Assembly: GCA_964016885.1 (NCBI GenBank)
Contig: OZ024740.1
Span: 4,216,001-4,280,000 of the forward strand
Length of the DNA stretch: 64,000 nt
Reading direction: 5' to 3'
Origin: Eledone cirrhosa
Lineage: Eukaryota
The notes below the pieces were generated by a model, which worked only from the letters and a program-made list of their open reading frames with translations, did no database searches and was not told where the DNA came from. The first letter of the stretch is position 1; the number at the start of each line of letters is the position of its first letter. Positions 5,047 through 45,406 of the stretch are shown piece after piece. Position numbers and translations under genes: made by a program.

Positions 5047-7355
5047 TATTTACCTTACTCTATATATACTATTGTATTTTCACGGTAAAGGCTTTACCTC
5101 ACATAATATCTCACATAACATTTATATTACTCTATATATACTATTGTATTGTCACAGTAAAGGCTTTACCTCACATAATACCTCACATAACATTTACATT
5201 ACTCTATATATACTATTGTATTTTCACAGTAAATGCTTTACCTCACATAATACCTCACATAACATTTACATTACTCTATATATACTATTGTATTTTCACA
5301 GTAAAGGCTTTACCTCACATAATATCTCACATAACATTTACCTTACTCTATATATACTATTGTATTGTCACAGTAAAGGCTTTACCTCACATAATATCTC
5401 ACATAACATTTACATTACTCTATATATACTATTGTATTGTCACAGTAAAGGCTTTACCTCACATAAAACCTCACATAACATTTACATTACTCTATATATA
5501 CAATTGTATTTTCACAGTAAAGGCTTTACCTCACATAATACCTCACATAACATTTACATTACTCTATATATACTATTGTATTTTCACAGTAAAGGCTTTA
5601 CCTCACATAATATCTCACATAACTTTTACCTTACTCTAGATATACTATTGTATTGTCACAGTAAAGGCTTTACCTCACATAATATCTCACATAACATTTA
5701 CATTACTCTATATATACTATTGTATTGTCACAGTAAAGGCTTTACCTCACATAATATCTCACATAACATTTACATTACTCCATATATACTATTGTATTGT
5801 CACAGTAAAGGCTTTACCTCACATAATATCTCACATAACATTTACATTACTCTATATATACTATTGTATTGTCACAGTAAAGGCTTTACCTCACATAATA
5901 TCTCACATAACATCTACATTACTCTATATATACTATTGTATTTTCACAGTAAAGGCTTTATCTCACATAATACCTCACATAACATCTACATTACTCTATA
6001 TATACTATTGTATTTTCACAGTAAAGGCTTTACCTCACATAATACCTCACATAACATTTACATTACTCCATATATACTATTGTATTTTCACAGTAAAGGC
6101 TTTACCTCACATAATATCTCACATAACATCTACATTACTCTATATATACTATTGTATTGTCACAGTAAAGGCTTTACCTCACATAATACCTCACATAACA
6201 TTAACATTACTCTATATATACTATTGTATTTTCACAGTAAAGGCTTTACCTCACATAATATCTCACATAACATTTACATTACTCTATATATACGATTGTA
6301 TTTTCACAGTAAAGGCTTTACCTCACATAATATCTCACATAACATTTACATTACTCTATATATACTATTGTATTGTCACAGTAAAGGCTTTACCTCACAT
6401 AATATCTCACATAACATTTACATTATTCTATATATACTATTGTATTGTCACAGTAAAGGCTTTACCTCACATAATACCTCACATAACATTTACATTATTC
6501 TATATATACGATTGTATTTTCACAGTAAAGGCTTTACCTCACATAATATCTCACATAATATTTACATTATTCTATATATACGATTGTATTTTCACAGTAA
6601 GGGCTTTACCTCACATAATATCTCACATAACATTTACATTACTCTATATATACTATTGTATTTTCACAGTAAAGGCTTTACCTCACATAATACCTCACAT
6701 AACATCTACATTACTCTATATATACTATTGTATTGTCACAGTAAAGGCTTTACCTCACATAATACCTCACATAACATTTACATTATTCTATATATACGAT
6801 TGTATTTTCACAGTAAAGGCTTTACCTCACATAATATCTCACATAACATTTACATTATTCTATATATACGATTGTATTTTCACAGTAAAGGCTTTACCTC
6901 ACATAATACCTCACATAACATTTACATTACTCTATATATACTATTGTATTTTCACAGTAAAGGCTTTACCTCACATAATATCTCACATAACTTTTACCTT
7001 ACTCTAGATATACTATTGTATTGTCACAGTAAAGGCTTTACCTCACATAATATCTCACATAACATTTACATTACTCTATATATACTATTGTATTGTCACA
7101 GTAAAGGCTTTACCTCACATAATATCTCACATAACATTTACATTACTCCATATATACTATTGTATTGTCACAGTAAAGGCTTTACCTCACATAATATCTC
7201 ACATAACATTTACATTACTCTATATATACTATTGTATTGTCACAGTAAAGGCTTTACCTCACATAATATCTCACATAACATCTACATTACTCTATATATA
7301 CTATTGTATTTTCACAGTAAAGGCTTTACCTCACATAATATCTCACATAACATCT
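5047..7355. repeat. 72-bp satellite, left array (~32 units)
   Basis: Unit ACTCTATATATACTATTGTATTKTCACAGTAAAGGCTTTACCTCACATAATAYCTCACATAACATYTACATT. Confidence 0.97.
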
Positions 7356-7564
7356 CGTATACGAGAGACGTGTGTTGACGTGTGTGAACAAGCTCGGCTA
7401 CCGAGTCGGATTTACTTACTCAAAAAGTGAGTTTTGATTAATTTTTTTATACTGTAATATACGTTAACCCCTTGCCTTGGTCGTCAAACTTTGAGTTTAT
7501 TTATTTTCGCCCCTTTTTGGGGCGAATTTTCCAGTTAAAAATTTATTACGGCAAACTAATAGAA

Positions 7565-9308
7565 ATGGACGGAATTTTCACATCTCATCCTAACGTGAAA
7601 GCCACGCCCCCTAAGAAAGGTGATACAGAGAAGCTAGAAGCACAAGGCTCTAAGTCTTCCCTCCTCACTTCTGCAAAAGAAACATGGAACACGGAATTAA
7701 AAGAAAAATTTGTAGAAATGGGTGAAAACCCAGAAAGTCACATAAACGCAGACAAAAACATCAACGACAATAACAGCAATAGTCACAACACCAACCAAGG
7801 AAAAAATAACGATAACACCAAACAAAGTGAACCCACTACTGGTACCTCCTTTGCACAGGCGGTCCGGAAAACACAAACCTGCAAGCAACTGGACATTACA
7901 ACTCTGAGAGAAAAGATGAAGGAAGCGAAACAGTATGTAACTTTCAAAGAAGGAGGAGACTTCACAATCACCTCCCCACAAGAAATCAAAAGAGACACGA
8001 CGCTAAGAACGATATCTTTCAGAACAATTTCCAACATAACAAGGAAACCAACTCAATTATCCCAAAAAGAGATTGAGCTGGTCCTAAAAAATGTGTGGAG
8101 TGATATATCGTTCATACAAAAAGGGCCACTCTATGGGAATATAACGGTCCTAATGAAGGATCAATTGACGGCCAGGAAATACTCTGTGGCACCAATTGTT
8201 TCCAAGATATATACATTTTTCCCCACATATTTAGGGAAAAGAACGCAGAAGATAAGGGTCTCCGGAATCCGGCCAAATGCATGCATTTCCTGGGTACTAA
8301 CAGGATTTTTAGAAGACGAGGACGGAATCCTCTCAGTAGGAGAAGTCACCACAGACGTTTTCGGCGGTTTGAGCGTGGAGGTTCTGGTCCAAATGAGACC
8401 AGAACGAATCGCTAGAATACCACAGAGGGTGTCCCTCGATGGAGAAACATTTATATATATTTCAGCCGAGGGTAGGAGGCCCATATGTTACTACTGTTCA
8501 AGCAGGGGTCATCTAAGGGCTGCTTGTCCTCAATTGACAAAAAAAAAAGGCTCTTTTGCCTACACCCCACACACCACCACCGCCACCACCACCACCACCA
8601 CCACCTCCACCACCACCACAACAACAACAACAAAAACAACAGGGAAAAATAACACAAGACACGGCCCCACCCAAAACAACTCCCAAAACACACACAAATA
8701 CAACAAAACCCCAAAATACACCACTACCCGACAGCACGGACGAGGACCCAGCGGAAACGGCACCTAGTGACGAAGAGGGGGAACCCTTCCAACCTGTAAA
8801 AAGGAAAAAAAGAAAGCACCACTCGAACATAAACGAAACAAACACACAACCACCAACAAAAACAAAACAAACAGAACAAACAAAATCCGCCCCACCCCAA
8901 AACATAACACATACAACAAAACGTAAGCACACACAAGAACAACAAACAAACACAACACAAATAAAACAGTATACATACATTAACACAAATAACAAAGAAC
9001 TAGTAAAAACAATACACAAAGACCCTTTGGTGGAAACTGAAGGGCAATTCTTTGCAAGCGCGGCCAACAAACCGCATTTAAAAATGATAAGACTCCCAAT
9101 GGACACCTATGCAAAACTAAGAGAGAACTTTCCTGAGGACGTGGGGAAAACATGTACTCGACCCTATAACCGCGTCCTCTTGAAACGTTTCCCCACCCAC
9201 ACCTCACCAAACACCCCCACTCCACCACAGAACAACACCCCACCAAACAACCCCTCCAATACGCCCATGGATATTGTGCAACCTGCTCCTCAGGAGCCGA
9301 ACAGGTAG
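7565..9308 (+). pseudogene. ORF1 copy 1 (gag-like, CCHC knuckle), +1 frameshift at A10 run 8539-8548
   Basis: CYYCSSRGHLRAAC knuckle. The run is A10GG versus A9GG in in-frame copies, so this could be a homopolymer sequencing error. Confidence 0.8.
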
Positions 9309-9329
9309 GTCCTTCCTCTTTTAACCAAC

Positions 9330-12300
9330 ATGGCTGATATAAGAGTTGGGTTTCTGAATGTACGTGGCCTGGGACTGTCTTGGAAACAAGGCAAACTTTT
9401 AAACGATCTCAGGTCACATAGAATGGATGTAATGGCTATTTGCGAGTCCAGGATCAGCAGCGAGCACCAACTGGCGCCCCTCTTCGACGACTTTGAGATC
9501 TTCGCATCTCTCTGTCAACCGGGGGGTGGGGGTGGAGTTGTCGTTCTGCTGCGAAAACACCTGGGCCTCGCCATACAGAAGGTGCACCTGGACCCGGAGG
9601 GTCGACTGGTGGTTTTAGACGTCGGCAGTAGTGAAAGTGGAGCCCTTAGACTAATAGCTGTGTACGCCCCTTTTTGGGCAGCGCGGCCGGAATACTTCCA
9701 ACGTCTGGAAACTTTTCTGGGAACGTCCCGCTCCTTGCTTTTAGTGGGGGACTGGAATGGTATCCTGGATGCACGTTGGGACTATGTAGGGGCATGTGCC
9801 AATAGAGGGGGGTGTAAAAGCCTCAAAAGGTTAATCGGCCGATTTGACCTGGCCGATAGATATCGACTAGATTTTCCGACTGTACCACTATGGACGTGGA
9901 CCAATCGCAGTGGAACATCTAGGTCGTACCTAGATAGGGTCCTAGTTAGAGAGAACGATAGGGACACATTTAGCTGTCCAAAAATGTTCATGGTTGACTA
10001 TTCGGATCACAAGTTAGTGACCTGCATAGCCAACCTTGATAGAACCCATAGACAGGGACCCGGTTACTGGAAGCTGAACTTGTCCTTACCGAGAAGCAAA
10101 GCTTACAGTAAACGGATTAGCACGTTAGTTAAGCAGAATTTGACAGGGGCAATTGTCAACAACAGGTGGTGGAGCTCTCTTAAGAGAGCAATTAGAATAG
10201 AATCGATAGGTTTTAGTCAGGAATTAGCAAGGGATAGGAACAAGACGGAAAGGGAATTAGTAGATAGAGTAGAAGAGGCGATTAGGAGTGGCAATGTAGC
10301 CGGCGTGCTGGCATCAAGAATGGCCTTAGACCAGTTCTTTGAGGTGAAGCATGAAGGCTGCGTTGTCAGGAGTAAAATACGTGCTCTGGGTAATGAGGGA
10401 GCCAAAGCTGTAAGCTGGGCCCGAGTGACAGAGGCAAAAAGTGGGAACAAGTCCACGATTCGGTCTTTGAAGGACCAGGATGGGCGTGTGATCCTTGAAC
10501 CTGGGCAGATGTGTGCGGCCTTTCAGCGGCACTTTGCACGACTGTTCGAGAGGGGCGGCGCGCCGGGTGAGACTATGGATTTCAATCCATACCTCGACGG
10601 TCTGCCGCGCCTCTCGGACGCGGAGGCGAAGTCCTGCGAAAGGACGATTTCAGCTGCTGAGATAGGGGCGGCGCTGAGCCAATGCGGCAAACGCAAATCC
10701 CCGGGTCTCGATGGTCTACCATACGAGCTATATGTAGCGATGCCGGACTTGTTCTCCGATATCCTCGAAGCGGTCTACTGCAACTGGCAGCAGAACGGGA
10801 GAATTCCCAGTTCTGTGACCAAGGGCGTAGTTACGCTGGTGAGGAAGGATGAGAACAAGGGGGATGACATAAGTAACTTCAGGCCCATAACTCTGCTAAA
10901 TACAGAGTTAAAGATTTTGGCCAAGGTGTTAGCGAAGAGGTTGGCGCTTGTCGTTGGAAACCTGGTGGGAGAAGCGCAGACATGCGCAATCCCGTCCAGG
11001 TCCATTCACGACAATCTCCACCTTATGCGATACATCATAGAGAGGGTAGGGAATGAACCCGGCTTTGGTGGGGCCCTGATCAACTTGGATCAATCTAAAG
11101 CTTTCGATAGGGTTGACCATCGTTACCTGGATGCGGTGCTCGCGGCGGCAGGCTTCGGACCCGTTTTCAGGGGTTGGATTGCTGCGATGCACAGCAGCAA
11201 CGTCTGCTCAAGGGTCAAGGTGAACGGCCACCTCTCGGAGCCGTTCCAAATCATGCGATCCATCCGACAGGGATGCCCTCTCTCCTCCCTACTGTATGTG
11301 CTGGCTCTTGAGCCACTACTGCGGAAGTTGGAGCGGTTGCAGGGCATCCCTTTGGAACCGGGATTGCAGAAAGCGGCGTCGGCCTACGCCGATGACGTGA
11401 CAGTAATGGTGTCGAAAACCTCGCAAATCGGTGAGATCGGCACCTTACTGGAGGAATATGAAAGGTTTACAGGAGCCAAGCTGAACCGGGACAAGTCCGT
11501 CGGTTTGCAACTCGGAACATGGAGAGGCAAACCGATGCCCTCCAACGACGTCGTCGGACGCTGGACGGAGGGCCCGGTGAAGCTGCTTGGGGTCTGGTTC
11601 GGACCAGACCTCCAGGTGGAGAAAAACTGGAACGAGGTAACGGCCAGGGTGTTTGCACTCACCCAGAAGTGGGCCCAGTGCAAACTATCCCTGAAAGGTC
11701 GAGCGGAGGTGGCGAATACTTATATAGCATCCGTCATCTACTACCGCTTGACCGTCGTGCCTTGCCCAGTGAAAAGACTCGCCAAAATGGAGTGCGCGCT
11801 GTTCCAATTTCTTTGGAACAAGCGGACCCCTTTGGTGAGGAGATCCATCTGCTGTCAACACCCTTCGAAAGGAGGGCTGGGGATGCCGTGGCTACAGATG
11901 CGTAAACACGCATTAAGGCTACGGCACCTCCAGGTATTCCTCACCGGTCAACCGGTGTGGGCCCCGTTTGTGAGGCGAGCCTTTCCCAGACTCGTCTCGC
12001 TCACCGAGCTGCAATCCTGGGTCAAGCAAAGACCGAGAAAAGTGGGCGACTGGCACATTGAATGTGCCCAGGCGCTCACGGCCCTCTGGAAAGCGGACCC
12101 GGCAATCAGTGGAGACTCCACCTCGACATTCTATAGAGGGTTGGTACGCAGCAGGTGCGACGATGCTCTCGGAGAAGCTCTAGGCATGGAGGAAGATGAA
12201 CTGGCCAGTCTGTTCGGTAGGACGTTTGGCCCTGGACCGATGGACAACTTCCAAAAGTCCCTGGCTTGGCAGTGCTACCGAGGGGCTCTACCCGTTCGAG

Positions 12301-12766
12301 ACAAGCTCCACAGGCATGGGAGCCTGGGTAGAGATCCTTTGAATAAGATCTGTCCGAGATGCGTGCATGATGACGAAACCGTTGCGCACGCATTCGTACA
12401 CTGCCCAGGCATTGCTGACCTGTGGGGCTATGTGGAACGACTACTGTCGAGGGTGGACCAATCCGGTTGACCACCGAGTCCATTGTCACGATCAAACCGC
12501 CTCCCCCTTTCAAAAACGAAGGAGAGGCGGTTTTTCTCTGTGTGGTAGCCATGGCTAAAGAAGTTGTATGGTGGACGAGGCTGAAAGGGCTGAGGTCAGA
12601 CACCTTTCTCTCCGGCCAACAACTGGTCCCCTTTTTCAAATACCATTTTAAAAGAAGGATCAGAATGGAGAGAGAGGTGCTCTACCCCAGCAAGTTTTAT
12701 GAAAGGTGGGTGAAAGTAGGGAGAATGGCCAGAGTGAATGGGTCTTCTCTCTATATCAGCCTGTAG
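9330..12766 (+). pseudogene. ORF2 copy 1 (APE endonuclease + RT + C-terminal zinc finger), -1 frameshift near 12455
   Basis: All catalytic motifs are present; GGGTGGACC here versus GGGTGGGACC in the other copies truncates the last ~100 aa. Confidence 0.85.
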
Positions 12767-13003
12767 GTGAAAGAAGAGGAAAAAGCGGAGACGAGGGAAG
12801 CACCTACTCTTTGTGCTCCTGAGGAGAAGGGTTACACATTTTTTCCGGGGTGTGTGCGACCCATGTTAATGCCCCCTCCCTATTGAGGACTTCGTTTGTT
12901 GTTGTTATTTCATTGTTATATTTTTGTACTCGTTAATTATATGTAAACTTCCCCCCTTGTATCTGTCCCTACCTTTTGTGCCCTAGTGGCAAATAAAGAA
13001 ACC

Positions 13004-14438
13004 ACTCTATATATACTATTGTATTTTCACAGTAAAGGCTTTACCTCACATAATACCTCACATAACATTTACATTACTCCATATATACTATTGTATTTTC
13101 ACAGTAAAGGCTTTACCTCACATAATATCTCACATAACATCTACATTACTCTATATATACTATTGTATTGTCACAGTAAAGGCTTTACCTCACATAATAC
13201 CTCACATAACATTAACATTACTCTATATATACTATTGTATTTTCACAGTAAAGGCTTTACCTCACATAATATCTCACATAACATTTACATTACTCTATAT
13301 ATACGATTGTATTTTCACAGTAAAGGCTTTACCTCACATAATATCTCACATAACATTTACATTACTCTATATATACTATTGTATTGTCACAGTAAAGGCT
13401 TTACCTCACATAATATCTCACATAACATTTACATTATTCTATATATACTATTGTATTGTCACAGTAAAGGCTTTACCTCACATAATACCTCACATAACAT
13501 TTACATTATTCTATATATACGATTGTATTTTCACAGTAAAGGCTTTACCTCACATAATATCTCACATAATATTTACATTATTCTATATATACGATTGTAT
13601 TTTCACAGTAAGGGCTTTACCTCACATAATATCTCACATAACATTTACATTACTCTATATATACTATTGTATTTTCACAGTAAAGGCTTTACCTCACATA
13701 ATACCTCACATAACATCTACATTACTCTATATATACTATTGTATTGTCACAGTAAAGGCTTTACCTCACATAATACCTCACATAACATTTACATTACTCT
13801 ATATATACTATTGTATTTTCACAGTAAAGGCTTTACCTCACATAATATCTCACATAACATTTACCTTACTCTATATATACTATTGTATTGTCACAGTAAA
13901 GGCTTTACCTCACATAATATCTCACATAACATTTACATTACTCTATATATACTATTGTATTTTCACAGTAAAGGCTTTACCTCACATAATACCTCACATA
14001 ACATTTACATTACTCTATATATACTATTGTATTTTCACAGTAAAGCCTTTACCTCACATAATATCTCACATAACATTTACATTACTCCATATATACTATT
14101 GTATTGTCACAGGAAAGGATTTACCTCACATAATATCTCACATAACATCTACATTACTCTATATATACTATTGTATTTTCACAGTAAAGGCTTTACCTCA
14201 CATAATACCTCACATAACATCTACATTACTCTATATATACTATTGTATTTTCACAGTAAAGGCTTTACCTCACATAATACCTCACATAACATTTACATTA
14301 CTCCATATATACTATTGTATTTTCACAGTAAAGGCTTTACCTCACATAATATCTCACATAACATCTACATTACTCTATATATACTATTGTATTGTCACAG
14401 TAAAGGCTTTACCTCACATAATATCTCACATAACATCT
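13004..14438. repeat. 72-bp satellite spacer 1 (1435 bp = 20x72-5)
   Basis: Direct count from junction coordinates. Confidence 0.96.
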
Positions 14439-14647
14439 CGTATACGAGAGACGTGTGTTGACGTGTGTGAACAAGCTCGGCTACCGAGTCGGATTTACTT
14501 ACTCAAAAAGTGAGTTTTGATTAATTTTTTTATACTGTAATATACGTTAACCCCTTGCCTTGGTCGTCAAACTTTGAGTTTATTTATTTTCGCCCCTTTT
14601 TGGGGCGAATTTTCCAGTTAAAAATTTATTACGGCAAACTAATAGAA

Positions 14648-16389: not shown

Positions 16390-16410
16390 GTCCTTCCTCT
16401 TTTAACCAAC

Positions 16411-22299: not shown

Positions 22300-22320
22300 G
22301 TCCTTCCTCTTTTAACCAAC

Positions 22321-28212: not shown

Positions 28213-28233
28213 GTCCTTCCTCTTTTAACCAAC

Positions 28234-31913: not shown

Positions 31914-31980
31914 ACTCTATATATACTATTGTATTGTCACAGTAAAGGCTTTACCTCACATAATATCTCACATAACATCT
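31914..31980. repeat. 72-bp satellite spacer 4 (67 bp = 72-5)
   Basis: A single incomplete unit between copies 4 and 5. Confidence 0.95.
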
Positions 31981-32189
31981 CGTATACGAGAGACGTGTGT
32001 TGACGTGTGTGAACAAGCTCGGCTACCGAGTCGGATTTACTTACTCAAAAAGTGAGTTTTGATTAATTTTTTTATACTGTAATATACGTTACCCCCTTGC
32101 CTTGGTCGTCAAACTTTGAGTTTATTTATTTTCGCCCCTTTTTGGGGCGAATTTTCCAGTTAAAAATTTATTACGGCAAACTAATAGAA

Positions 32190-33911: not shown

Positions 33912-33932
33912 GTCCTTCCTCTTTTAACCAAC

Positions 33933-36900
33933 ATGGCTGATATAAGAGTTGGGTGTCTGAATGTACGTGGCCTGGGACTGTCTTGGAAACAAGGCAAACT
34001 TTTAAACGCTCTCAGGTCGCATAGAATGGATGTAATGGCTATTTGCGAGTCCAGGATCAGCAGCGAGCACCAACTGGCGCCCCTCTTCGACGACTTTGAG
34101 ATCTTCGCATCTCTCTGTCAACCGGGGGGTGGGGGTGGAGTTGTCGTTCTGCTGCGAAAACACCTGGGCCTCGCCATACAGAAGGTGCACCTGGACCCGG
34201 AGGGTCGACTGGTGGTTTTAGACGTCGGCAGTAGTGAAAGTGGAGCCCTTAGACTAATAGCTGTGTACGCCCCTTTTTGGGCAGCGCGGCCGGAATACTT
34301 CCAACGTCTGGAAACTTTTCTGGGAACGTCCCGCTCCTTGCTTTTAGTGGGGGACTGGAATGGTATCCTGGATGCACGTTGGGACTATGTAGGGGCATGT
34401 GCCAATAGAGGGGGGTGTAAAAGCCTCAAAAGGTTAATCGGACGATTTGACCTGGCCGATAGATATCGACTAGATTTTCCGACTGTACCACTATGGACGT
34501 GGACCAATCGCAGTGGAACATCTAGGTCGTACCTAGATAGGGTCCTAGTTAGAGAGAACGATAGGGACACATTTAGCTGTCCAAAAATGTTCATGGTTGA
34601 CTATTCGGATCACAAGTTAGTGACCTGCATAGCCAACCTTGATAGAACCCATAGACAGGGACCCGGTTACTGGAAGCTGAACTTGTCCTTACCGAGAAGC
34701 AAAGCTTACAGTAAACGGATTAGCACGTTAGTTAAGCAGAGTTTGACAGGGGCAATTGTCAACAACAGGTGGTGGAGCTCTCTTAAGAGAGCAATTAGAA
34801 TAGAATCGATAGGTTTTAGTCAGGAATTAGCAAGGGATAGGAACAAGACGGAAAGGGAATTAGTAGGTAGAGTAGAAGAGGCGATTAGGAGTGGAAATGT
34901 AGCCGGCGTGCTGGCATCAAGAATGGCCTTAGACCAGTTCTTTGAGGTGAAGCATGAAGGCTGCGTTGTCAGGAGTAAAATACGTGCTCTGGGTAATGAG
35001 GGAGCCAAAGCTGTGAGCTGGGCCCGAGTGACAGAGGCAAAAAGTGGGAACAAGTCCACGATTCGGTTTTTGAAGGACCAGGATGGGCGTGTGATCCTTG
35101 AACCTGGGCAGATGTGTGCGGCCTTTCAGCGGCACTTTGCACGACTGTTCGAGAGGGGCGGCGCGCCGGGTGAGACTATGGATTTCAATCCATACCTCGA
35201 CGGTCTGCCGCGCCTCTCGGACGCGGAGGCGAAGTCCTGCGAAAGGACGATTTCAGCTGCTGAGATAGGGGCGGCGCTGAGCCAATGCGGCAAACGCAAA
35301 TCCCCGGGTCTCGATGGTCTACCATACGAGCTATATGTAGCGATGCCGGACTTGTTCTCCGATATCCTCGAAGCGGTCTACTGCAACTGGCAGCAGAACG
35401 GGAGAATTCCCAGTTCTGTGACCAAGGGCGTAGTTACGCTGGTGAGGAAGGATGAGAACAAGGGGGATGACATAAGTAACTTCAGGCCCATAACTCTGCT
35501 AAATACAGAGTTAAAGATTTTGGCCAAGGTGTTAGCGAAGAGGTTGGCGCTTGTCGTTGGAAACCTGGTGGGAGAAGCGCAGACATGCGCAATCCCGTCC
35601 AGGTCCATTCACGACAATCTCCACCTTATGCGATACATCATAGAGAGGGTAGGGAATGAACCCGGCTTTGGTGGGGCCCTGATCAACTTGGATCAATCTA
35701 AAGCTTTCGATAGGGTTGACCATCGTTACCTGGATGCGGTGCTCGCGGCGGCAGGCTTCGGACCCGTTTTCAGGGGTTGGATTGCTGCGATGCACAGCAG
35801 CAACGTTTGCTCAAGGGTCAAGGTGAACGGCCACCTCTCGGAGCCGTTCCAAATCATGCGATCCATCCGACAGGGATGCCCTCTCTCCTCCCTACTGTAT
35901 GTGCTGGCTCTTGAGCCACTACTGCGGAAGTTGGAGCGGTTGCAGGTCATCCCTTTGGAACCGGGATTTCAGAAAGCGGCGTCGGCCTACGCCGATGACG
36001 TGACAGTAATGGTGTCGAAAACCTCGCAAATCGGTGAGATCGGCACCTTACTGGAGGAATATGAAAGGTTTACAGGAGCCAAGCTGAACCGGGACAAGTC
36101 CGTCGGTTTGCAACTCGGAACATGGAGAGGCAAACCGATGCCCTCCAACGACGTCGTCTGACGCTGGACGGAGGGCCCGGTGAAGCTGCTTGGGGTCTGG
36201 TTCGGACCAGACCTCCAGGTGGAGAAAAACTGGAACGAGGTAACGGCCAGGGTGTTTGCACTCACCCAGAAGTGGGCCCAGTGCAAACTATCCCTGAAAG
36301 GTCGAGCGGAGGTGGCGAATACTTATATAGCATCCGTCATCTACTACCGCTTGACCGTCGTGCCTTGCCCAGTGAAAAGACTCGCCAAAATGGAGTGCGC
36401 GCTGTTCCAATTTCTTTGGAACAAGCGGACCCCTTTGGTGAGGAGATCCATCTGCTGTCAACACCCTTCGAAAGGAGGGCTGGGGATGCCGTGGCTACAG
36501 ATGCGTAAACACGCATTAAGGCTACGGCACCTCCAGGTATTCCTCACCGGTCAACCGGTGTGGGCCCCGTTTGTGAGGCGAGCCTTTCCCAACTCGTCTC
36601 GCTCATCGAGCTGCAATCCTGGGTCAAGCAAAGACCGAGAAAAGTGGGCGACTGGCACATTGAATGTGCCCAGGCGCTCACGGCCCTCTGGAAAGCGGAC
36701 CCGGCAATCAGTGGAGACTCCACCTCGACATTCTATAGAGGGTTGGTACGCAGCAGGTGCGACGATGCTCTCGGAGAAGCTCTAGGCATGGAGGAAGATG
36801 AACTGGCCAGTCTGTTCGGTAGGACGTTTGGCCCTGGACCGATGGACAACTTCCAAAAGTCCCTGGCTTGGCAGTGCTACCGAGGGGCTCTACCCGTTCG

Positions 36901-37369
36901 AGACAAGCTCCACAGGCATGGGAGCCTGGGTAGAGATCCTTTGAATAAGATCTGTCCGAGATGCGTGCATGATGACGAAACCGTTGCGCACGCATTCGTA
37001 CACTGCCCAGGCATTGCTGACCTGTGGGGCTATGTGGAACGACTACTGTCGAGGGTGGGACCAATCCGGTTGACCACCGAGTCCATTGTCACGATCAAAC
37101 CGCCTCCCCCTTTCAAAAACGAAGGAGAGGCGGTTTTTCTCTGTGTGGTAGCCATGGCTAAAGAAGTTGTATGGTGGACGAGGCTGAAAGGGCTGAGGTC
37201 AGACACCTTTCTCTCCGGCCAACAACTGGTCCCCTTTTTCAAATACCATTTTAAAAGAAGGATCAGAATGGAGAGAGAGGTGCTCTACCCCAGCAAGTTT
37301 TATGAAAGGTGGGTGAAAGTAGGGAGAATGGCCAGAGTGAATGGGTCTTCTCTCTATATCAGCCTGTAG
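33933..37369 (+). pseudogene. ORF2 copy 5, TGA at 36159-36161 and -1 deletion near 36591
   Basis: The ORF track splits into 742, 201 and 269 aa pieces. Confidence 0.9.
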
Positions 37370-37606
37370 GTGAAAGAAGAGGAAAAAGCGGAGACGAGGG
37401 AAGCACCTACTCTTTGTGCTCCTGAGGAGAAGGGTTACACATTTTTTCCGGGGTGTGTGCGACCCATGTTAATGCCCCCTCCCTATTGAGGACTTCGTTT
37501 GTTGTTGTTATTTCATTGTTATATTTTTGTACTCGTTAATTATATGTAAACTTCCCCCCTTGTATCTGTCCCTACCTTTTGTGCCCTAGTGGCAAATAAA
37601 GAAACC

Positions 37607-37745
37607 ACTCTATATATACTATTGTATTTTCACAGTAAAGGCTTTACCTCACATTATATCTCGCATAACATTTACATTACTCTATATATACTATTGTATT
37701 GTCACAGTAAAGGCTTTACCTCACATAATATCTCACATAACATCT
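37607..37745. repeat. 72-bp satellite spacer 5 (139 bp = 2x72-5)
   Basis: Direct count; carries the CATTATATCTCGCAT variant typical of the right array. Confidence 0.95.
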
Positions 37746-37954
37746 CGTATACGAGAGACGTGTGTTGACGTGTGTGAACAAGCTCGGCTACCGAGTCGGA
37801 TTTACTTACTCAAAAAGTGAGTTTTGATTAATTTTTTTATACTGTAATATACGTTAACCCCTTGCCTTGGTCGTCAAACTTTGAGTTTATTTATTTTCGC
37901 CCCTTTTTGGGGCGAATTTTCCAGTTAAAAATTTATTACGGCAAACTAATAGAA

Positions 37955-39697
37955 ATGGACGGAATTTTCACATCTCATCCTAACGTGAAAGCCACACCCC
38001 CTAAGAAAGGTGATACAGAGAAGCTAGAAGCACAAGGCTCTAAGTCTTCCCTCCTGACTTCTGCAAAAGAAACATGGAACACGGAAATAAAAGAAAAACT
38101 TGAAAAAATGGGTGAAAACCCAGAAAGTCACATAAACGCAGACAAAAACAACAACGACAATAACAGCAATAGTCACAACACCAACCAAGGAAAAAATAAC
38201 GATAACACCAAACAAAGCGAACCCACTACTGGTACCTCCTTTGCACAGGCGGTCCGGAAAACACAAACCTGCAAGCAACTGGACATTACAACTCTGAGAG
38301 AAAAGATGAAGGAAGCGAAACAGTATGTAACTTTCAAAGAAGGAGGAGACTTCACAATCACCTCCCCACAAGAAATCAAAAGAGACACGACGCTAAGAAC
38401 GATATCTTTCAGAACAATTTCCAACATAACAAGGAAACCAACTCAATTATCCCAAAAAGAGATTGAGCTGGTCCTAAAAAATGTGTGGAGTGATATATCG
38501 TTCATACAAAAAGGGCCACTCTATGGGAATATAACGGTCCTAATGAAGGATCAATTGACGGCCAGGAAATACTCTGTGGCACCAATTGTTTCCAAGCTAC
38601 ATACATTTTTCCCCACATATTTAGGGAAAAGAACGCAGAAGATAAGGGTCTCCGGAATCCGGCCAAATGCATGCATTTCCTGGGTACTAACAGGGTTTTT
38701 AGAAGACGAGGACGGAATCCTCTCAGTAGGAGAAGTCACCACAGACGTTTTCGGCGGTTTGAGCGTGGAGGTTCTGGTCCAAATGAGACCAGAACGAATC
38801 GCTAGAATACCACAGAGGGTGTCCCTCGATGGAGAAACATTTATATATATTTCAGCCGAGGGTAGGAGGCCCATATGTTACTACTGTTCAAGCAGGGGTC
38901 ATCTAAGGGCTGCTTGTCCTCAATTGACAAAAAAAAAGGCTCTTTTGCCTACACCCCACACACCGCCACCACCACCACCACCAACACCTCCACCACCACC
39001 ACCACCACCACAACAACAACAAAAACAACAGGGAAAAATAACACAAGACACGGCCCCACCCAAAACAACTCCCAAAACACACACAAATACAACAAAACCC
39101 CAAAATACACCACTACCCGACAGCACGGACGAGGACCCAGCGGAAACGGCACCTAGTGACGAAGAGGGGGAACCCTTCCAACCTGTAAAAAGGAAAAAAA
39201 GAAAGCACCACTCAAACATAAACGAAACAAACACACAACCACCAACAAAAACAAAACAAACAGAACAAACAAAATCCGCCCCACCCCAAAACATAACACA
39301 TACAACAAAACGTAAGCACACACAAGAACAACAAACAAACACAACACAAATAAAACAGTATACATACATTAACACAAATAACAAAGAACTAGTAAAAACA
39401 ATACACAAAGACCCTTTGGTGGAAACTGAAGGACAATTCTTTGCAAGCGCGGCCAACAAACCGCATTTAAAAATGATAAGACTCCCAATGGACACCTATG
39501 CAAAACTAAGAGAGAACTTTCCTGAGGACGTGGGGAAAACATGTACTCGACCCTATAACCGCGTCCTCTTGAAACGTTTCCCCACCCACACCTCACCAAA
39601 CACCCCCACTCCACCACAGAACAACACCCCACCAAACAACCCCTCCAATACGCCCATGGATATTGTGCAACCGGCTCCTCAGGAGCCGAACAGGTAG
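37955..39697 (+). CDS. ORF1 copy 6, intact ~580 aa nucleic-acid-binding gag-like protein
   Basis: First ATG at 37955 (the track's start at 37862 is a TTG); CX2CX4HX4C knuckle; poly-Pro/Gln tract; basic KRKKRK NLS-like motif. Confidence 0.9.
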   Translation: MDGIFTSHPNVKATPPKKGDTEKLEAQGSKSSLLTSAKETWNTEIKEKLEKMGENPESHINADKNNNDNNSNSHNTNQGKNNDNTKQSEPTTGTSFAQAVRKTQTCKQLDITTLREKMKEAKQYVTFKEGGDFTITSPQEIKRDTTLRTISFRTISNITRKPTQLSQKEIELVLKNVWSDISFIQKGPLYGNITVLMKDQLTARKYSVAPIVSKLHTFFPTYLGKRTQKIRVSGIRPNACISWVLTGFLEDEDGILSVGEVTTDVFGGLSVEVLVQMRPERIARIPQRVSLDGETFIYISAEGRRPICYYCSSRGHLRAACPQLTKKKALLPTPHTPPPPPPPTPPPPPPPPQQQQKQQGKITQDTAPPKTTPKTHTNTTKPQNTPLPDSTDEDPAETAPSDEEGEPFQPVKRKKRKHHSNINETNTQPPTKTKQTEQTKSAPPQNITHTTKRKHTQEQQTNTTQIKQYTYINTNNKELVKTIHKDPLVETEGQFFASAANKPHLKMIRLPMDTYAKLRENFPEDVGKTCTRPYNRVLLKRFPTHTSPNTPTPPQNNTPPNNPSNTPMDIVQPAPQEPNR

Positions 39698-39718
39698 GTC
39701 CTTCCTCTTTTAACCAAC

Positions 39719-42700
39719 ATGGCTGATATAAGAGTTGGGTGTCTGAATGTACGTGGCCTGGGACTGTCTTGGAAACAAGGCAAACTTTTAAACGATCTCA
39801 GGTCGCATAGAATGGATGTAATGGCTATTTGCGAGTCCAGGATCAGCAGCGAGCACCAACTGGCGCCCCTCTTCGACGACTTTGAGATCTTCGCATCTCT
39901 CTGTCAACCGGGGGGTGGGGGTGGAGTTGTCGTTCTGCTGCGAAAACACCTGGGCCTCGCCATACAGAAGGTGCACCTGGACCCGGAGGGTCGACTGGTG
40001 GTTTTAGACGTCGGCAGTAGTGAAAGTGGAGCCCTTAGACTAATAGCTGTGTACGCCCCTTTTTGGGCAGCGCGGCCGGAATACTTCCAACGTCTGGAAA
40101 CTTTTCTGGGAACGTCCCGCTCCTTGCTTTTAGTGGGGGACTGGAATGGTATCCTGGATGCACGTTGGGACTATGTAGGGGCATGTGCCAATAGAGGGGG
40201 GTGTAAAAGCCTCAAAAGGTTAATCGGACGATTTGACCTGGCCGATAGATATCGACTAGATTTTCCGACTGTACCACTATGGACGTGGACCAATCGCAGT
40301 GGAACATCTAGGTCGTACCTAGATAGGGTCCTAGTTAGAGAGAACGATAGGGACACATTTAGCTGTCCAAAAATGTTCATGGTTGACTATTCGGATCACA
40401 AGTTAGTGACCTGCATAGCCAACCTTGATAGAACCCATAGACAGGGACCCGGTTACTGGAAGCTGAACTTGTCCTTACCGAGAAGCAAAGCTTACAGTAA
40501 ACGGATTAGCACGTTAGTTAAGCAGAGTTTGACAGGGGCAATTGTCAACAACAGGTGGTGGAGCTCTCTTAAGAGAGCAATTAGAATAGAATCGATAGGT
40601 TTTAGTCAGGAATTAGCAAGGGATAGGAACAAGACGGAAAGGGAATTAGTAGATAGAGTAGAAGAGGCGATTAGGAGTGGCAATGTAGCCGGCGTGCTGG
40701 CATCAAGAATGGCCTTAGACCAGTTCTTTGAGGTGAAGCATGAAGGCTGCGTTGTCAGGAGTAAAATACGTGCTCTGGGTAATGAGGGAGCCAAAGCTGT
40801 AAGCTGGGCCCGAGTGACAGAGGCAAAAAGTGGGAACAAGTCCACGATTCGGTCTTTGAAGGACCAGGATGGGCGTGTGATCCTTGAACCTGGGCAGATG
40901 TGTGCGGCCTTTCAGCGGCACTTTGCACGACTGTTCGAGAGGGGCGGCGCGCCGGGTGAGACTATGGATTTCAATCCATACCTCGACGGTCTGCCGCGCC
41001 TCTCGGACGCGGAGGCGAAGTCCTGCGAAAGGACGATTTCAGCTGCTGAGATAGGGGCGGCGCTGAGCCAATGCGGCAAACGCAAATCCCCGGGTCTCGA
41101 TGGTCTACCATACGAGCTATATGTAGCGATGCCGGACTTGTTCTCCGATATCCTCGAAGCGGTCTACTGCAACTGGCAGCAGAACGGGAGAATTCCCAGT
41201 TCTGTGACCAAGGGCGTAGTTACGCTGGTGAGGAAGGATGAGAACAAGGGGGATGACATAAGTAACTTCAGGCCCATAACTCTGCTAAATACAGAGTTAA
41301 AGATTTTGGCCAAGGTGTTAGCGAAGAGGTTGGCGCTTGTCGTTGGAAACCTGGTGGGAGAAGCGCAGACATGCGCAATCCCGTCCAGGTCCATTCACGA
41401 CAATCTCCACCTTATGCGATACATCATAGAGAGGGTAGGGAATGAACCCGGCTTTGGTGGGGCCCTGATCAACTTGGATCAATCTAAAGCTTTCGATAGG
41501 GTTGACCATCGTTACCTGGATGCGGTGCTCGCGGCGGCAGGCTTCGGACCCGTTTTCAGGGGTTGGATTGCTGCGATGCACAGCAGCAACGTCTGCTCAA
41601 GGGTCAAGGTGAACGGCCACCTCTCGGAGCCGTTCCAAATCATGCGATCCATCCGACAGGGATGCCCTCTCTCCTCCCTACTGTATGTGCTGGCTCTTGA
41701 GCCACTACTGCGGAAGTTGGAGCGGTTGCAGGGCATCCCTTTGGAACCGGGATTGCAGAAAGCGGCGTCGGCCTACGCCGATGACGTGACAGTAATGGTG
41801 TCGAAAACCTCGCAAATCGGTGAGATCGGCACCTTACTGGAGGAATATGAAAGGTTTACAGGAGCCAAGCTGAACCGGGACAAGTCCGTCGGTTTGCAAC
41901 TCGGAACATGGAGAGGCAAACCGATGCCCTCCAACGACGTCGTCGGACGCTGGACGGAGGGCCCGGTGAAGCTGCTTGGGGTCTGGTTCGGACCAGACCT
42001 CCAGGTGGAGAAAAACTGGAACGAGGTAACGGCCAGGGTGTTTGCACTCACCCAGAAGTGGGCCCAGTGCAAACTATCCCTGAAAGGTCGAGCGGAGGTG
42101 GCGAATACTTATATAGCATCCGTCATCTACTACCGCTTGACCGTCGTGCCTTGCCCAGTGAAAAGACTCGCCAAAATGGAGTGCGCGCTGTTCCAATTTC
42201 TTTGGAACAAGCGGACCCCTTTGGTGAGGAGATCCATCTGCTGTCAACACCCTTCGAAAGGAGGGCTGGGGATGCCGTGGCTACAGATGCGTAAACACGC
42301 ATTAAGGCTACGGCACCTGCAGGTATTCCTCACCGGTCAACCGGTGTGGGCCCCGTTTGTGAGGCGAGCCTTTCCCAGACTCGTCTCGCTCACCGAGCTG
42401 CAATCCTGGGTCAAGCAAAGACCGAGAAAAGTGGGCGAGTGGCACATTGAATGTGCCCAGGCGCTCACGGCCCTCTGGAAAGCGGACCCGGCAATCAGTG
42501 GAGACTCCACCTCGACATTCTATAGAGGGTTGGTACGCAGCAGGTGCGACGATGCTCTCGGAGAAGCTCTAGGCATGGAGGAAGATGAACTGGCCAGTCT
42601 GTTCGGTAGGACGTTTGGCCCTGGACCGATGGACAACTTCCAAAAGTCCCTGGCTTGGCAGTGCTACCGAGGGGCTCTACCCGTTCGAGACAAGCTCCAC

Positions 42701-43156
42701 AGGCATGGGAGCCTGGGTAGAGATCCTTTGAATAAGATCTGTCCGAGATGCGTGCATGATGACGAAACCGTTGCGCACGCATTCGTACACTGCCCAGGCA
42801 TTGCTGACCTGTGGGGCTATGTGGAAAGACTACTGTCGAGGGTGGGACCAATCCGGTTGACCACCGAGTCCATTGTCACGATCAAACCGCCTCCCCCTTT
42901 CAAAAACGAAGGAGAGGCGGTTTTTCTCTGTGTGGTAGCCATGGCTAAAGAAGTTGTATGGTGGACGAGGCTGAAAGGGCTGAGGTCAGACACCTTTCTC
43001 TCCGGCCAACAACTGGTCCCCTTTTTCAAATACCATTTTAAAAGAAGGATCAGAATGGAGAGAGAGGTGCTCTACCCCAGCAAGTTTTATGAAAGGTGGG
43101 TGAAAGTAGGGAGAATGGCCAGAGTGAATGGGTCTTCTCTCTATATCAGCCTGTAG
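39719..43156 (+). CDS. ORF2 copy 6, intact 1145 aa APE endonuclease/reverse transcriptase
   Basis: Complete APE, RT (YADD) and C-terminal Cys/His motifs; starts 21 nt after the ORF1 stop. Confidence 0.96.
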   Translation: MADIRVGCLNVRGLGLSWKQGKLLNDLRSHRMDVMAICESRISSEHQLAPLFDDFEIFASLCQPGGGGGVVVLLRKHLGLAIQKVHLDPEGRLVVLDVGSSESGALRLIAVYAPFWAARPEYFQRLETFLGTSRSLLLVGDWNGILDARWDYVGACANRGGCKSLKRLIGRFDLADRYRLDFPTVPLWTWTNRSGTSRSYLDRVLVRENDRDTFSCPKMFMVDYSDHKLVTCIANLDRTHRQGPGYWKLNLSLPRSKAYSKRISTLVKQSLTGAIVNNRWWSSLKRAIRIESIGFSQELARDRNKTERELVDRVEEAIRSGNVAGVLASRMALDQFFEVKHEGCVVRSKIRALGNEGAKAVSWARVTEAKSGNKSTIRSLKDQDGRVILEPGQMCAAFQRHFARLFERGGAPGETMDFNPYLDGLPRLSDAEAKSCERTISAAEIGAALSQCGKRKSPGLDGLPYELYVAMPDLFSDILEAVYCNWQQNGRIPSSVTKGVVTLVRKDENKGDDISNFRPITLLNTELKILAKVLAKRLALVVGNLVGEAQTCAIPSRSIHDNLHLMRYIIERVGNEPGFGGALINLDQSKAFDRVDHRYLDAVLAAAGFGPVFRGWIAAMHSSNVCSRVKVNGHLSEPFQIMRSIRQGCPLSSLLYVLALEPLLRKLERLQGIPLEPGLQKAASAYADDVTVMVSKTSQIGEIGTLLEEYERFTGAKLNRDKSVGLQLGTWRGKPMPSNDVVGRWTEGPVKLLGVWFGPDLQVEKNWNEVTARVFALTQKWAQCKLSLKGRAEVANTYIASVIYYRLTVVPCPVKRLAKMECALFQFLWNKRTPLVRRSICCQHPSKGGLGMPWLQMRKHALRLRHLQVFLTGQPVWAPFVRRAFPRLVSLTELQSWVKQRPRKVGEWHIECAQALTALWKADPAISGDSTSTFYRGLVRSRCDDALGEALGMEEDELASLFGRTFGPGPMDNFQKSLAWQCYRGALPVRDKLHRHGSLGRDPLNKICPRCVHDDETVAHAFVHCPGIADLWGYVERLLSRVGPIRLTTESIVTIKPPPPFKNEGEAVFLCVVAMAKEVVWWTRLKGLRSDTFLSGQQLVPFFKYHFKRRIRMEREVLYPSKFYERWVKVGRMARVNGSSLYISL

Positions 43157-43393
43157 GTGAAAGAAGAGGAAAAAGCGGAGACGAGGGAAGCACCTACTCT
43201 TTGTGCTCCTGAGGAGAAGGGTTACACATTTTTTCCGGGGTGTGTGCGACCCATGTTAATGCCCCCTCCCTATTGAGGACTTCGTTTGTTGTTGTTATTT
43301 CATTGTTATATTTTTGTACTCGTTAATTATATGTAAACTTCCCCCCTTGTATCTGTCCCTACCTTTTGTGCCCTAGTGGCAAATAAAGAAACC

Positions 43394-44371
43394 ACTCTAT
43401 ATATACTATTGTATTTTCACAGTAAAGGCTTTACCTCACATAATATCTCGCATAACATTTACATTACTCTATATATACTATTGTATTTTCACAGTAAAGG
43501 CTTTACCTCACATTATATCTCGCATAACATTTACATTACTCTATATATACTATTGTATTTTCACAGTAAAGGCTTTACCTCACATTATATCTCGCATAAC
43601 ATTTACATTACTCTATATATACTATTGTATTGTCACAGTAAAGGCTTTACCTCACATAATATCTCACATAACATTTACATTACTCTATATATACTATTGT
43701 ATTTTCACAGTAAAGGCTTTACCTCACATAATATCTCGCATAACATTTACATTACTCTATATATACTATTGTATTTTCACAGTAAAGGCTTTACCTCACA
43801 TTATATCTCGCATAACATTTACATTACTCTATATATACTATTGTATTTTCACAGTAAAGGCTTTACCTCACATAATATCTCACATAACATTTACATTACT
43901 CTATATATACTATTGTATTGTCACAGTAAAGGCTTTACCTCACATAATATCTCACATAACATTTACATTACTCTATATATACTATTGTATTGTCACAGTA
44001 AAGGCTTTACCTCACATATCTCACATAACATTTACATTACTCTATATATACTATTGTATTGTCACAGTAAAGGCTTTACCTCACATATCTCACATAACAT
44101 TTACATTACTCTATATATACTATTGTATTTTCACAGTAAAGGCTTTACCTCACATTATATCTCGCATAACATTTACATTACTCTATATATACTATTGTAT
44201 TTTCACAGTAAAGGCTTTACCTCACATAATATCTCACATAACATTTACATTACTCTATATATACTATTGTATTGTCACAGTAATGGCCTTATCTCACATA
44301 ATATCTCGCATAACATTTACATTACTCTATATATACTATTGTATTGTCACAGTAATGGCCTTATCTCACAT
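43394..44371. repeat. 72-bp satellite, right array (~13.5 units, two 69-bp units)
   Basis: Same unit with local variants CTCGCAT and CATTAT, plus a 3-bp deletion in two units; diverged terminal units. Confidence 0.96.
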
Positions 44372-45372: not shown

Positions 45373-45406
45373 ATTATTACTCAAAAATGCATTAGCTTAT
45401 TAATCA

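What the first reader, a model, noticed from the sequence alone, without database searches (positions are those of the whole stretch)
5047..44371. Tx1-like retrotransposon apparently specialised for one phase of a 72-bp satellite, forming a six-element head-to-tail array
Seen: six co-oriented full-length copies, all with the same junctions ...CACATAACATCT|CGTATACGAG and AATAAAGAAACC|ACTCTATATATAC. Spacers are 1435, 283, 283, 67 and 139 bp, all exactly 72n-5. Known: Tx1-clade APE elements often target multicopy repeats (Keno-U2 snRNA, Mutsu-5S rDNA, Dewa-tRNA spacers, Kibi/Koshi-microsatellites, Tx1L-Tx1D transposon). I do not recall a 72-bp satellite target. Inference: this is either a sequence-specific family using satellite DNA as a safe harbour, or one insertion amplified by satellite-mediated recombination. 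Satellite variants 14-50 bp downstream of the 3' junctions differ between copies and follow the local array type, and the elements fall into at least three haplotypes (1/2, 3/4/5, 6). This favours several independent events plus some duplication.
Basis: partly seen in the sequence, partly recalled or inferred. Interest (0 to 1): 0.88.

Follow-up and report, generated by a model that had tools for sequence, protein, structure and literature searches.

The report
LINE that targets a transposon's repeat
Six copies of a young copy-and-paste jumping gene sit at the same base of a 72-letter repeat inside a small cut-and-paste transposon, as do some 300 copies across this likely octopus genome, and the element likely carries about 30 letters of its landing site on its own RNA to join its front end precisely, a trick already known from fly and other rDNA elements.

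Summary
Observation confirmed: six 5.63-5.65-kb APE-RT LINEs, identical junctions, spacers 1435/283/283/67/139. It is a genome-wide sequence-specific family: 259 of 261 exact young 3' ends are followed by the same repeat phase, 312 exact 5' junctions. The '72-bp satellite' is the internal tandem repeat of a ~220-bp TTAA-flanked, piggyBac-like MITE (at least 10,630 left ends); the whole 39.5-kb region is one inflated MITE, as with Xenopus Tx1L in Tx1D. Repeat positions 37-67 before each element are element-borne: local variants vanish there, and the empty site of copy 1, still present in the array, shows two variants overwritten and 5 bases lost. Inferred mechanism: TPRT with ~30 nt of target on the RNA 5' end annealing upstream, as proposed for melanogaster R1A and many R2; 45 of 48 sampled copies are full length. 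An 80%-identical sister family sits in (ATCT)n. This array = about four insertions plus DNA-level duplication (copy 3 is a copy 4/copy 2 chimera; copies 3-5 share a stop). The scan found this family before on other DNA of this genome. New variant of a known kind.

The parts
5035..5052 (+). Left end of the host MITE: TTAA (5035-5038) and degenerate terminal inverted repeat from 5039
   Evidence: TIR preceded by TTAA at 43 of 50 left ends with a TIR (84 left flanks examined)
5057..7355 (+). Left tandem array of the MITE's 72-bp internal repeat, with a 19-unit higher-order duplication
5561..6784 (+). Empty-site copy of the insertion site of element 1 (5 units = 6929-7288 and 11 units = 13004-13795 with 0 mismatches; junction unit 5921-5992)
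   Evidence: other registers give 25-39 mismatches
7325..7355 (+). Element-borne target-like tract (unit positions 37-67) of copy 1; two local variants overwritten relative to the empty site
   Evidence: boundary inferred
7356..13003 (+). LINE copy 1; 0 substitutions from L198 on another chromosome outside the CAC-repeat; both ORFs shifted by 1-bp indels
13004..14438 (+). Spacer 1, 20 units minus 5 bp; last 31 nt element-borne (C53, T66, A67 of the matching unit 6137-6203 replaced)
14439..20085 (+). LINE copy 2; related to the copy-1 source; ORF1 shifted, ORF2 open
17547..22426 (+). 4,880-bp block identical to 23460-28339 (3' part of copy 2 + spacer 2 + 5' part of copy 3): recent unequal crossover, or an assembly duplication
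20086..20368 (+). Spacer 2 (283 bp), identical to spacer 3
20369..25998 (+). LINE copy 3, chimera: identical to copy 4 over nt 1-1900 and to copy 2 over nt 3701-end; ORF1 stop at codon 98
25999..26281 (+). Spacer 3 (283 bp)
26282..31913 (+). LINE copy 4; ORF1 and ORF2 stops shared with copy 5, absent from 49 other copies
31914..31980 (+). Spacer 4 (67 bp, one unit)
31981..37606 (+). LINE copy 5, likely local duplicate of copy 4
37607..37745 (+). Spacer 5 (139 bp); 37715-37745 is the element-borne tract of copy 6
37746..43393 (+). LINE copy 6, separate source lineage (nearest sampled copy L218, 16 substitutions); both ORFs open
37955..39697 (+). ORF1 of copy 6, 580 aa, one CCHC knuckle (weak Pfam hit, below cut-off)
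39719..43156 (+). ORF2 of copy 6, 1145 aa: APE endonuclease, RT, zf-RVT
43394..44371 (+). Right tandem array of the 72-bp repeat
44372..44507 (+). Unique right body of the MITE, degenerate right TIR ending 44503, TTAA 44504-44507
   Evidence: TTAA follows the TIR at 32 of 39 right ends with a TIR (65 right flanks examined)

Best explanation
A young two-ORF APE-RT LINE family sits at one base of the 72-bp internal repeat of a TTAA-flanked MITE at about 300 places in this genome, likely by nicking that site and copying its RNA there, and the about 30 target-like bases that precede full-length copies likely come from the element's own RNA and anneal upstream to join the 5' end without a target duplication. 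Steps: (1) shown: fixed 3' junction at the unit boundary; (2) inferred: APE nick of the bottom strand there and target-primed reverse transcription; (3) shown: unit positions 37-67 upstream of full-length copies lose local variants and carry an element-specific C66, and 5-7 target bases are lost; (4) inferred: the cDNA end anneals to the upstream unit and primes the second strand, which makes joins uniform and favours full-length copies; truncated cDNAs join by the ordinary route with short duplications; (5) every further unit remains a target, so spacers are 72n-5; (6) in this array about four insertions (copies 1, 2, 4/5 ancestor, 6) were followed by likely unequal crossover that made copy 3 and the 4/5 pair.
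For: Targeting: 259 of 261 exact 3' ends followed by ACTCT genome-wide; 48 of 48 copies at 95.5-100% identity among 94 non-window loci (first 100 of 351 listed hits, six window copies dropped) start the flank at unit position 1; 312 exact 5' junctions and 285 exact 5'-UTR 20-mers; reversed-pattern controls 0. Host: TIR+TTAA at both ends, 10,630 exact left ends, 43,343 exact empty sites. Independence: LINEs 99.96% alike sit in MITE bodies 82% alike; median LINE identity 98.4% vs MITE body 83.6%, 18 loci; copy 1 equals L198 and is 1 substitution from L244 and C20_1, which lie in 72-, 60/72- and 42-bp array types. Element-borne tract: mismatch to consensus in the junction unit equals ordinary units at positions 1-36 (p=0.43) but is 4-14 times lower at 37-65 (p=5e-10; 79 junction units vs 157 ordinary units); local markers kept 17 of 22 at 1-36, 0 of 48 marker positions (12 loci) at 37-65; C66 at 90 of 92 junctions vs 0 of 267 upstream ordinary units there and 643 exact empty C66 sites genome-wide; direct empty/filled comparison in this window. 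45 of 48 full length; truncated L174 has a 9-bp and L236 a 2-bp duplication. Precedent: PMC2718515 sections 11 (part 1) and 15; PMC3774820 abstract and passages. Duplication.
Against: No RNA, nicking or transposition data; the 5' end of the transcript is inferred from DNA only. Tract length is not uniform: 12 of 92 junctions match the tract for only 1-25 nt, while two copies in a 42-bp array carry 139 nt of 72-bp type upstream and L219 lacks the downstream markers over the whole unit. L220 has the same five markers on both sides, which fits a long target duplication instead (1 locus; 3 of 38 informative loci identical, 35 different). L232 is truncated with a deletion, not a duplication. Only three truncated copies were seen. 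Samples are positional or top-scoring, not random, and junction units are not fully independent (local duplicates). No ribozyme that would set the RNA 5' end was found. Copies 3-6 share one private base and 5-6 another, so local gene conversion blurs the event count.
Confidence: 0.83

Rival explanations
1. One insertion was amplified by recombination in the repeat, and all copies descend from it at the DNA level.
For: Identical junctions; 4,880-bp identical block; copies 3-5 share 9 private substitutions with a stop codon, copies 4-5 three more; the C10 array also holds local pairs. True for two of the six copies here.
Against: Copies on at least 20 contigs, both strands; near-identical LINEs in unrelated, 82%-identical MITE hosts; copy 1 has its own empty site; copies 1, 4/5 and 6 differ at family-wide polymorphic sites.
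Confidence: 0.02
2. A composite MITE+LINE was spread by a piggyBac-type transposase (hitchhiking).
For: Whole TTAA-flanked MITEs that contain a LINE exist (L171, L201, L226).
Against: MITE bodies around LINEs are at most 93.6% alike while LINEs are up to 99.96% alike; no correlation (Spearman 0.10, 153 non-independent pairs); unit number and array type differ around near-identical LINEs; this window's TIRs are degenerate.
Confidence: 0.03
3. Copies spread by DNA-level homing: a break in an empty repeat is repaired from an occupied repeat, copying the whole element and flanking bases.
For: Explains 45 of 48 full-length copies, uniform junctions and converted flank; two C20 copies carry 139 nt of foreign upstream repeat.
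Against: Conversion is one-sided: downstream local markers are kept from position 9 on (9 of 9 at 1-18, 26 of 29 at 19-30) while the upstream tract has a sharp edge near position 37; truncated copies with short duplications exist; 21 of 55 copies keep an open RT ORF.
Confidence: 0.06
4. The upstream tract is not element-borne; the endonuclease simply chooses units that match the consensus over 30 bp upstream.
For: Would also give low variation at 37-65; full-length copies were never seen directly after the TIR (0 of 92).
Against: Empty-site units carry variants that the filled sites lack (T41, C53 at copy 1; C53, T66 at copy 2); L176 and L177 lie in 60-bp arrays yet have the 12 missing bases only in the junction unit; C66 is rare in empty units; a truncated copy sits at the first site after a TIR, so the nick does not need the upstream unit (L236).
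Confidence: 0.04
5. The family is real but copy 3 (and its spacer) is an assembly duplication, so the array has five copies.
For: 4,880 bp without a single difference; copies 1 and 2 have homopolymer-type 1-bp indels.
Against: Copy 3 differs from copy 4 in nt 1901-3700 (2 substitutions and a G-run length) and shares one private base with copy 5 only; similar local pairs occur on C10.
Confidence: 0.12

Closest known systems
Xenopus laevis Tx1L in Tx1D (non-autonomous piggyBac family)
   Same: APE-type L1-group LINE inserted sequence-specifically in a non-autonomous piggyBac-type transposon (PMC4494074, PMC1950540, PMC6719617 passages). That Tx1D has internal tandem repeats holding the target is recalled, from no call.
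   Different: Different host repeat (72-bp unit of a ~220-bp MITE); full-length copies here make no target duplication but replace 5-7 bases (Tx1L's 23-bp duplication is recalled, from no call); ~300 young copies, serial arrays up to six.
Melanogaster-type R1A (R1 clade, 28S rDNA) and R2 lineages with upstream ribozyme cleavage
   Same: Full-length copies with a precise short target deletion and no 5' variation, truncated copies with duplications, explained by upstream target sequence on the RNA 5' end (PMC2718515 sections 11 part 1 and 15: 9-bp deletion, 16-27 nt; PMC3774820: up to 36 nt, uniform 7-bp deletion in springtail).
   Different: L1/Tx1-type protein, not R1 or R2; target is a dispersed MITE repeat, not rDNA; no HDV-like ribozyme detected; full-length share here is 45 of 48.
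Microsatellite-specific Tx1 families Kibi, Koshi, crocodilian (TTCC)n/(TTTC)n families; Tx1-Mar/SINEU-3 in Mariner-N4_AMi
   Same: The 80%-identical sister family here sits in (ATCT)n and stacks head-to-tail (12 of 28 5' ends follow another 3' end); tandem serial insertion is described for SINEU-3 (PMC4494074 passage).
   Different: A switch between a microsatellite and a MITE repeat separates two close sister families in one genome; both keep ATCT before the 5' boundary and TCTAT two bases after the 3' end.

Membership tests
L1 group non-LTR retrotransposon | ORF2 with N-terminal APE endonuclease, RT and C-terminal Cys motif; separate ORF1 | tested here: met
   Pfam Exo_endo_phos 2e-12, RVT_1 2e-27, zf-RVT 2e-6; ORF1 580 aa
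L1 group non-LTR retrotransposon | Closer to L1 ORF2p than to R2-type RTs | tested here: met
   PDB: human L1 ORF2p E 3.5e-53 over residues 10-864, R2 proteins E 3e-23 or weaker
Tx1 clade | RT phylogeny grouping with named Tx1 families (Tx1L, Keno, Kibi, Koshi, Mutsu, Dewa) | not testable with these tools
   No named Tx1 sequence was returned: 30 homologues and 9 clusters carry no useful name; Repbase/Dfam not held
Tx1 clade | Gag-like ORF1 with CCHC knuckle (recalled as typical) | tested here: inconclusive
   zf-CCHC E 0.0075, 16.8 bits, below the 20.8 cut-off; C-x2-C-x4-H-x4-C is visible at residues 348-364
Target-specific non-LTR family (criterion of PMC4494074: more than 20% of flanks in one repeat) | Flanks in one sequence type at one position | tested here: met
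   259 of 261; 48 of 48
Non-autonomous piggyBac-like MITE (host) | TTAA on both sides and short TIRs starting CCC, ending GGG; no coding capacity; high copy | tested here: met
   TTAA at 43 of 50 left and 32 of 39 right TIRs; ~200-220-bp monomers; 10,630 exact left ends
Non-autonomous piggyBac-like MITE (host) | Autonomous piggyBac partner with matching TIRs (excludes Kolobok and other TTAA families) | not tested
   No search for the transposase partner was made
R1A/R2-type 5' joining by upstream target sequence on the RNA | Uniform full-length 5' junction with fixed short deletion; target-like tract that travels with the element | tested here: met
R1A/R2-type 5' joining by upstream target sequence on the RNA | Transcript 5' end lies in upstream target sequence | not testable with these tools
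   No RNA holder listed
R2-type HDV-like ribozyme | Nested double pseudoknot at the 5' end | tested here: not met
   No Rfam match above chance in 37400-44500; crude own descriptor 0 hits, 1 of 40 shuffles hit; descriptor not validated on known ribozymes

The most novel reading that the evidence does not exclude
The short target copies at the RNA ends are the main targeting and completion device of this lineage: swapping a (ATCT)n tract for a ~30-nt MITE-repeat tract, with few endonuclease changes, retargeted the family from a microsatellite to a transposon-born repeat and made almost every insertion full length, so the element would be a compact integrator that can be re-aimed by changing its terminal tracts.
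Probability: 0.15. Interest if true: 0.75.

Novelty: new variant of a known kind. Interest (0 to 1): 0.42.

Why it matters
It joins two known strategies in one young family: a Tx1L-like choice of a piggyBac-type MITE as landing site and an R1A/R2-like homology join at the 5' end. Because the targets are thousands of dispersed, slightly different repeats rather than uniform rDNA, the overwritten tract can be mapped from sequence alone (edge near position 37, with an empty and a filled site side by side in this window), which speaks to the open question of how LINE second-strand synthesis is primed. A close sister family with a different target makes the basis of a target switch testable. An APE element that delivers 5.6 kb full length in over nine of ten cases to a multicopy site is of some interest for gene insertion. 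It is not a new principle.

Tried and rejected
Rfam scan of copy 6 and flanks: two chance-level hits only. Long hairpin between the target-like tract and the 5' UTR seen in the MFE fold: not better than shuffles (139 of 300, 252 of 300 and 45 of 300 as stable), rejected; only the 14-bp palindrome at the junction is real. HDV-like descriptor: none. General long-TSD model for full-length copies: 35 of 38 informative loci have different markers on the two sides, rejected as the rule. First per-position count failed to remove duplicate loci and was replaced; the 3' list required ACT after the end and is not used as evidence of targeting. A variant T36 as a junction artefact: as frequent in ordinary units (7 of 157 vs 7 of 79), not pursued. 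C66 in ordinary units of this array as an element scar: 643 empty C66 sites exist genome-wide, so it may be an ordinary variant. Protein searches gave no named Tx1 reference. No RNA holder listed. Contigs of run X7 do not cover the element's 5' part; no conclusion drawn. PMC85248 and PMC362770 are not held, and the supplements of PMC4494074 could not be read: the satellite-targeting Tx1 family of its Fig. 3 and any Repbase entry for this octopod family remain unseen and may bear on novelty.
Full report
1. Observation. The six elements, their junction strings and the five spacers (1435, 283, 283, 67, 139 = 72n-5) are exactly as described. ORF2 of copy 6 has APE endonuclease, RT and zf-RVT domains and its best solved relative is human L1 ORF2p (E 3.5e-53; R2 proteins 3e-23 or weaker). 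ORF1 has a CCHC motif with only a sub-threshold Pfam hit. In this assembly only copy 6 has both ORFs open; 7 of 55 aligned full-length copies do. The window is G000:C1:4,216,001-4,280,000 of a 3.0-Gb genome; octopus-like is my inference from a recalled SINE, not tested.

2. It is a genome-wide, site-specific family. A 20-mer ending at the element's last base occurs 261 times; with ACTCT added, 259 times; reversed controls 0. The 5' junction occurs 312 times exactly and an internal 5' 20-mer 285 times. A 21-mer just inside the 3' end, blind to the flank, occurs 351 times; I fetched the 94 non-window places among the first 100 listed (contigs C1-C8, positional, six window copies dropped). 48 are 95.5-100% identical to copy 6 and all 48 continue at unit position 1; 45 of 48 reach the 5' end. 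The other 46 (44 at 76-83%, 2 without a BLAST hit) are a sister family, 43 followed by (ATCT)n; its ORF2 is 80% identical. The 30+30 top-scoring loci gave the same junctions.

3. The satellite is the inside of a MITE. Array flanks share a short TIR with TTAA outside it: 50 of 84 left flanks have the TIR (43 with TTAA) and 39 of 65 right flanks (32 with TTAA). Monomers are about 200-220 bp; 10,630 exact left ends and 43,343 exact empty target 23-mers exist. In the window the MITE runs 5039-44503 with degenerate TIRs. LINE pairs up to 99.96% alike lie in MITE bodies 82% alike (medians 98.4% and 83.6%, 18 loci), so the LINEs entered old, diverged hosts one by one and did not ride a composite transposon.

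4. The 5' junction. Among 92 distinct non-window 5' junctions, 90 end in the same 12 bases including C66. In 79 ungapped junction units against 157 ordinary upstream units, mismatch rates are equal at positions 1-36 (p=0.43) and 0.2-0.5% versus 1.9-2.4% at 37-65 (p=5e-10) (13 junctions with another register were left out of this count). Local markers shared by the two preceding units are kept 17 of 22 times at 1-36 and 0 of 48 (12 loci) at 37-65, whereas downstream they are kept from position 9 on (25 junctions with short upstream arrays were not scored). L176 and L177 lie in 60-bp arrays and have the missing 12 bases only in the junction unit. The window holds its own control: units 5561-6784 repeat the surroundings of copy 1 with 0 mismatches over 5 units upstream and 11 downstream (other registers 25-39); only the junction unit differs, at positions 41 and 53, both towards the element tract, and 5 bases are lost. 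At copy 2 positions 53, 66 and 67 change likewise, though only two upstream units match and the downstream flank does not follow. A long target duplication is not the rule (35 of 38 informative loci differ between sides). Of three truncated copies, L174 has a 9-bp and L236 a 2-bp duplication, L232 a deletion. Against uniformity: 12 of 92 junctions match the tract for 25 nt or less, two C20 copies carry 139 nt of foreign repeat, and L220 fits a long duplication.

5. Mechanism. Shown: fixed 3' register, overwritten upstream tract with an edge near position 37, short fixed loss, high full-length share. Inferred: APE nick at the unit boundary, TPRT, annealing of the cDNA end to the upstream unit to prime the second strand. 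This is the model published for melanogaster-type R1A (precise 9-bp deletion in full-length copies, duplications in truncated ones, 16-27 nt of upstream target on the RNA; PMC2718515, sections 11 part 1 and 15 read) and for R2 lineages that cleave up to 36 nt upstream (PMC3774820, abstract and passages read). How the RNA gets its 5' end is open: no Rfam match, no HDV-like fold by a crude descriptor, and the long hairpin is not beyond shuffles. No RNA run was listed.

6. History of this array. Copy 1 has 0 substitutions from L198 (C2) and 1 from L244 (C8) and C20_1, outside the CAC repeat, and has its empty site: a very recent insertion. Copy 2 comes from a related source (4 substitutions, lacking two alleles that copy 1 shares with other loci). 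Copy 6 is a separate lineage. Copies 3-5 share nine substitutions absent from 49 other copies, one an ORF1 stop; 4 and 5 share three more, one an ORF2 stop, which points to local DNA duplication. Copy 3 equals copy 4 over nt 1-1900 and copy 2 over nt 3701-end, and spacers 2 and 3 lie in 4,880-bp identical blocks: an unequal crossover, or an assembly duplication that only long reads can exclude. Two private bases shared with copy 6 suggest gene conversion. About four insertions plus two duplications is the simplest count. Tandem arrays recur (C10: spacers 67, 715, 67, 67).

7. Comparison with what is known. Works like Tx1L in Tx1D, a non-autonomous piggyBac family (PMC4494074, PMC1950540, PMC6719617; passages read) for target choice, and like R1A/R2 for 5' joining. 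Tx1 membership by phylogeny could not be tested; L1-group membership is met. The Fig. 3 legend of PMC4494074 lists satellites among Tx1 targets, and PMC4640811 (passages) describes YURE in U2-derived satellites, so a satellite target is not unprecedented. PMC13282606 (passages) counts 13 recently active L1-Tx1 families in Octopus vulgaris and does not use the words target or satellite. Eight searches found no description of this family or of a Tx1-type element with an upstream-homology join; subscription papers, Repbase and the supplements of PMC4494074 were not visible. The scan's own notes (consulted after my reading was fixed) report the same family at other loci of this genome; they are not independent support.

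8. Verdict. Real, site-specific, young; a new variant of a known kind. New here are the side-by-side empty and filled site that maps the overwritten tract, the genome-wide counts, the sister family with another target, and the mixed origin of the six-copy array. Interest 0.42.

Noticed in passing
L152-L238 (46 loci), e.g. L205, L166: Sister LINE family (76-83% DNA, ORF2 80% amino-acid identity) followed by (ATCT)n in 43 of 46 loci; 28 of 46 have a 5' end, 23 of these behind TCTATCTATCT; 12 of 28 follow another 3' end within 150 bp.
   Followed up: partly
G000 C1-C3, 65 loci: The MITE-targeting family lies within 31 Mb of contig ends (29 of 29) while the (ATCT)n sister is spread through the arms (Mann-Whitney p=6e-10); perhaps because multi-unit MITE arrays are distal. 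19 of 30 positional MITE left ends have a single site.
   Followed up: partly
window 37896-37918 and L205 5' UTR: Both families have a GC stem with a U5 loop 35-60 nt before ORF1, with paired differences between the two; two sequences only.
   Followed up: no
window 37743-37756: 14-bp palindrome spanning the 5' boundary; the sister family has a 6-bp hairpin at the same place.
   Followed up: partly
L245-L247 (G000:C20:1-30000): Two LINE copies of different haplotype in a 42-bp variant array (unit includes the TIR), each preceded by the same 139 nt of 72-bp type repeat.
   Followed up: partly
L248-L250 (G000:C10:40.72-40.75 Mb); C10:41.38-41.43 Mb: Another head-to-tail array of five copies, spacers 67, 715, 67, 67, made of two local pairs; two three-copy arrays nearby (listing).
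   Followed up: partly
L220: TIR, one unit, LINE, then a unit with the same five private variants and the MITE end: candidate insertion into a monomer with a long duplication.
   Followed up: no
L192, L198 (3' flanks): Another repeat interrupts the 72-bp unit about 15 nt into it at two loci; its start looks Helitron-like (label recalled, untested).
   Followed up: no
window 5849-14371: The C66 variant is common in ordinary units of this array (10 exact sites) but rare genome-wide (643 vs 43,343; different patterns).
   Followed up: partly
window 1-906, 4198-4907, 45410-57063, 57512-64000: Other tandem arrays: 14-bp, 21-bp, an 11.6-kb 40-bp array and a 26-bp array with 134/373-bp higher order.
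   Followed up: no
window ~1180-2000, ~44590-44700, ~45250-45390: Several copies of a short interspersed repeat that I recall as an octopus-type SINE (label from no call).
   Followed up: no
runs X1, X3, X6 (organism labels A, B, C; studies P1, P2): Contigs hold the element's 5' end with 32, 28 and 32 upstream tract bases; X1 and X6 reach the 31-letter bridging rule, so the same 5' junction occurs under other organism labels. One of these may be the source species.
   Followed up: partly
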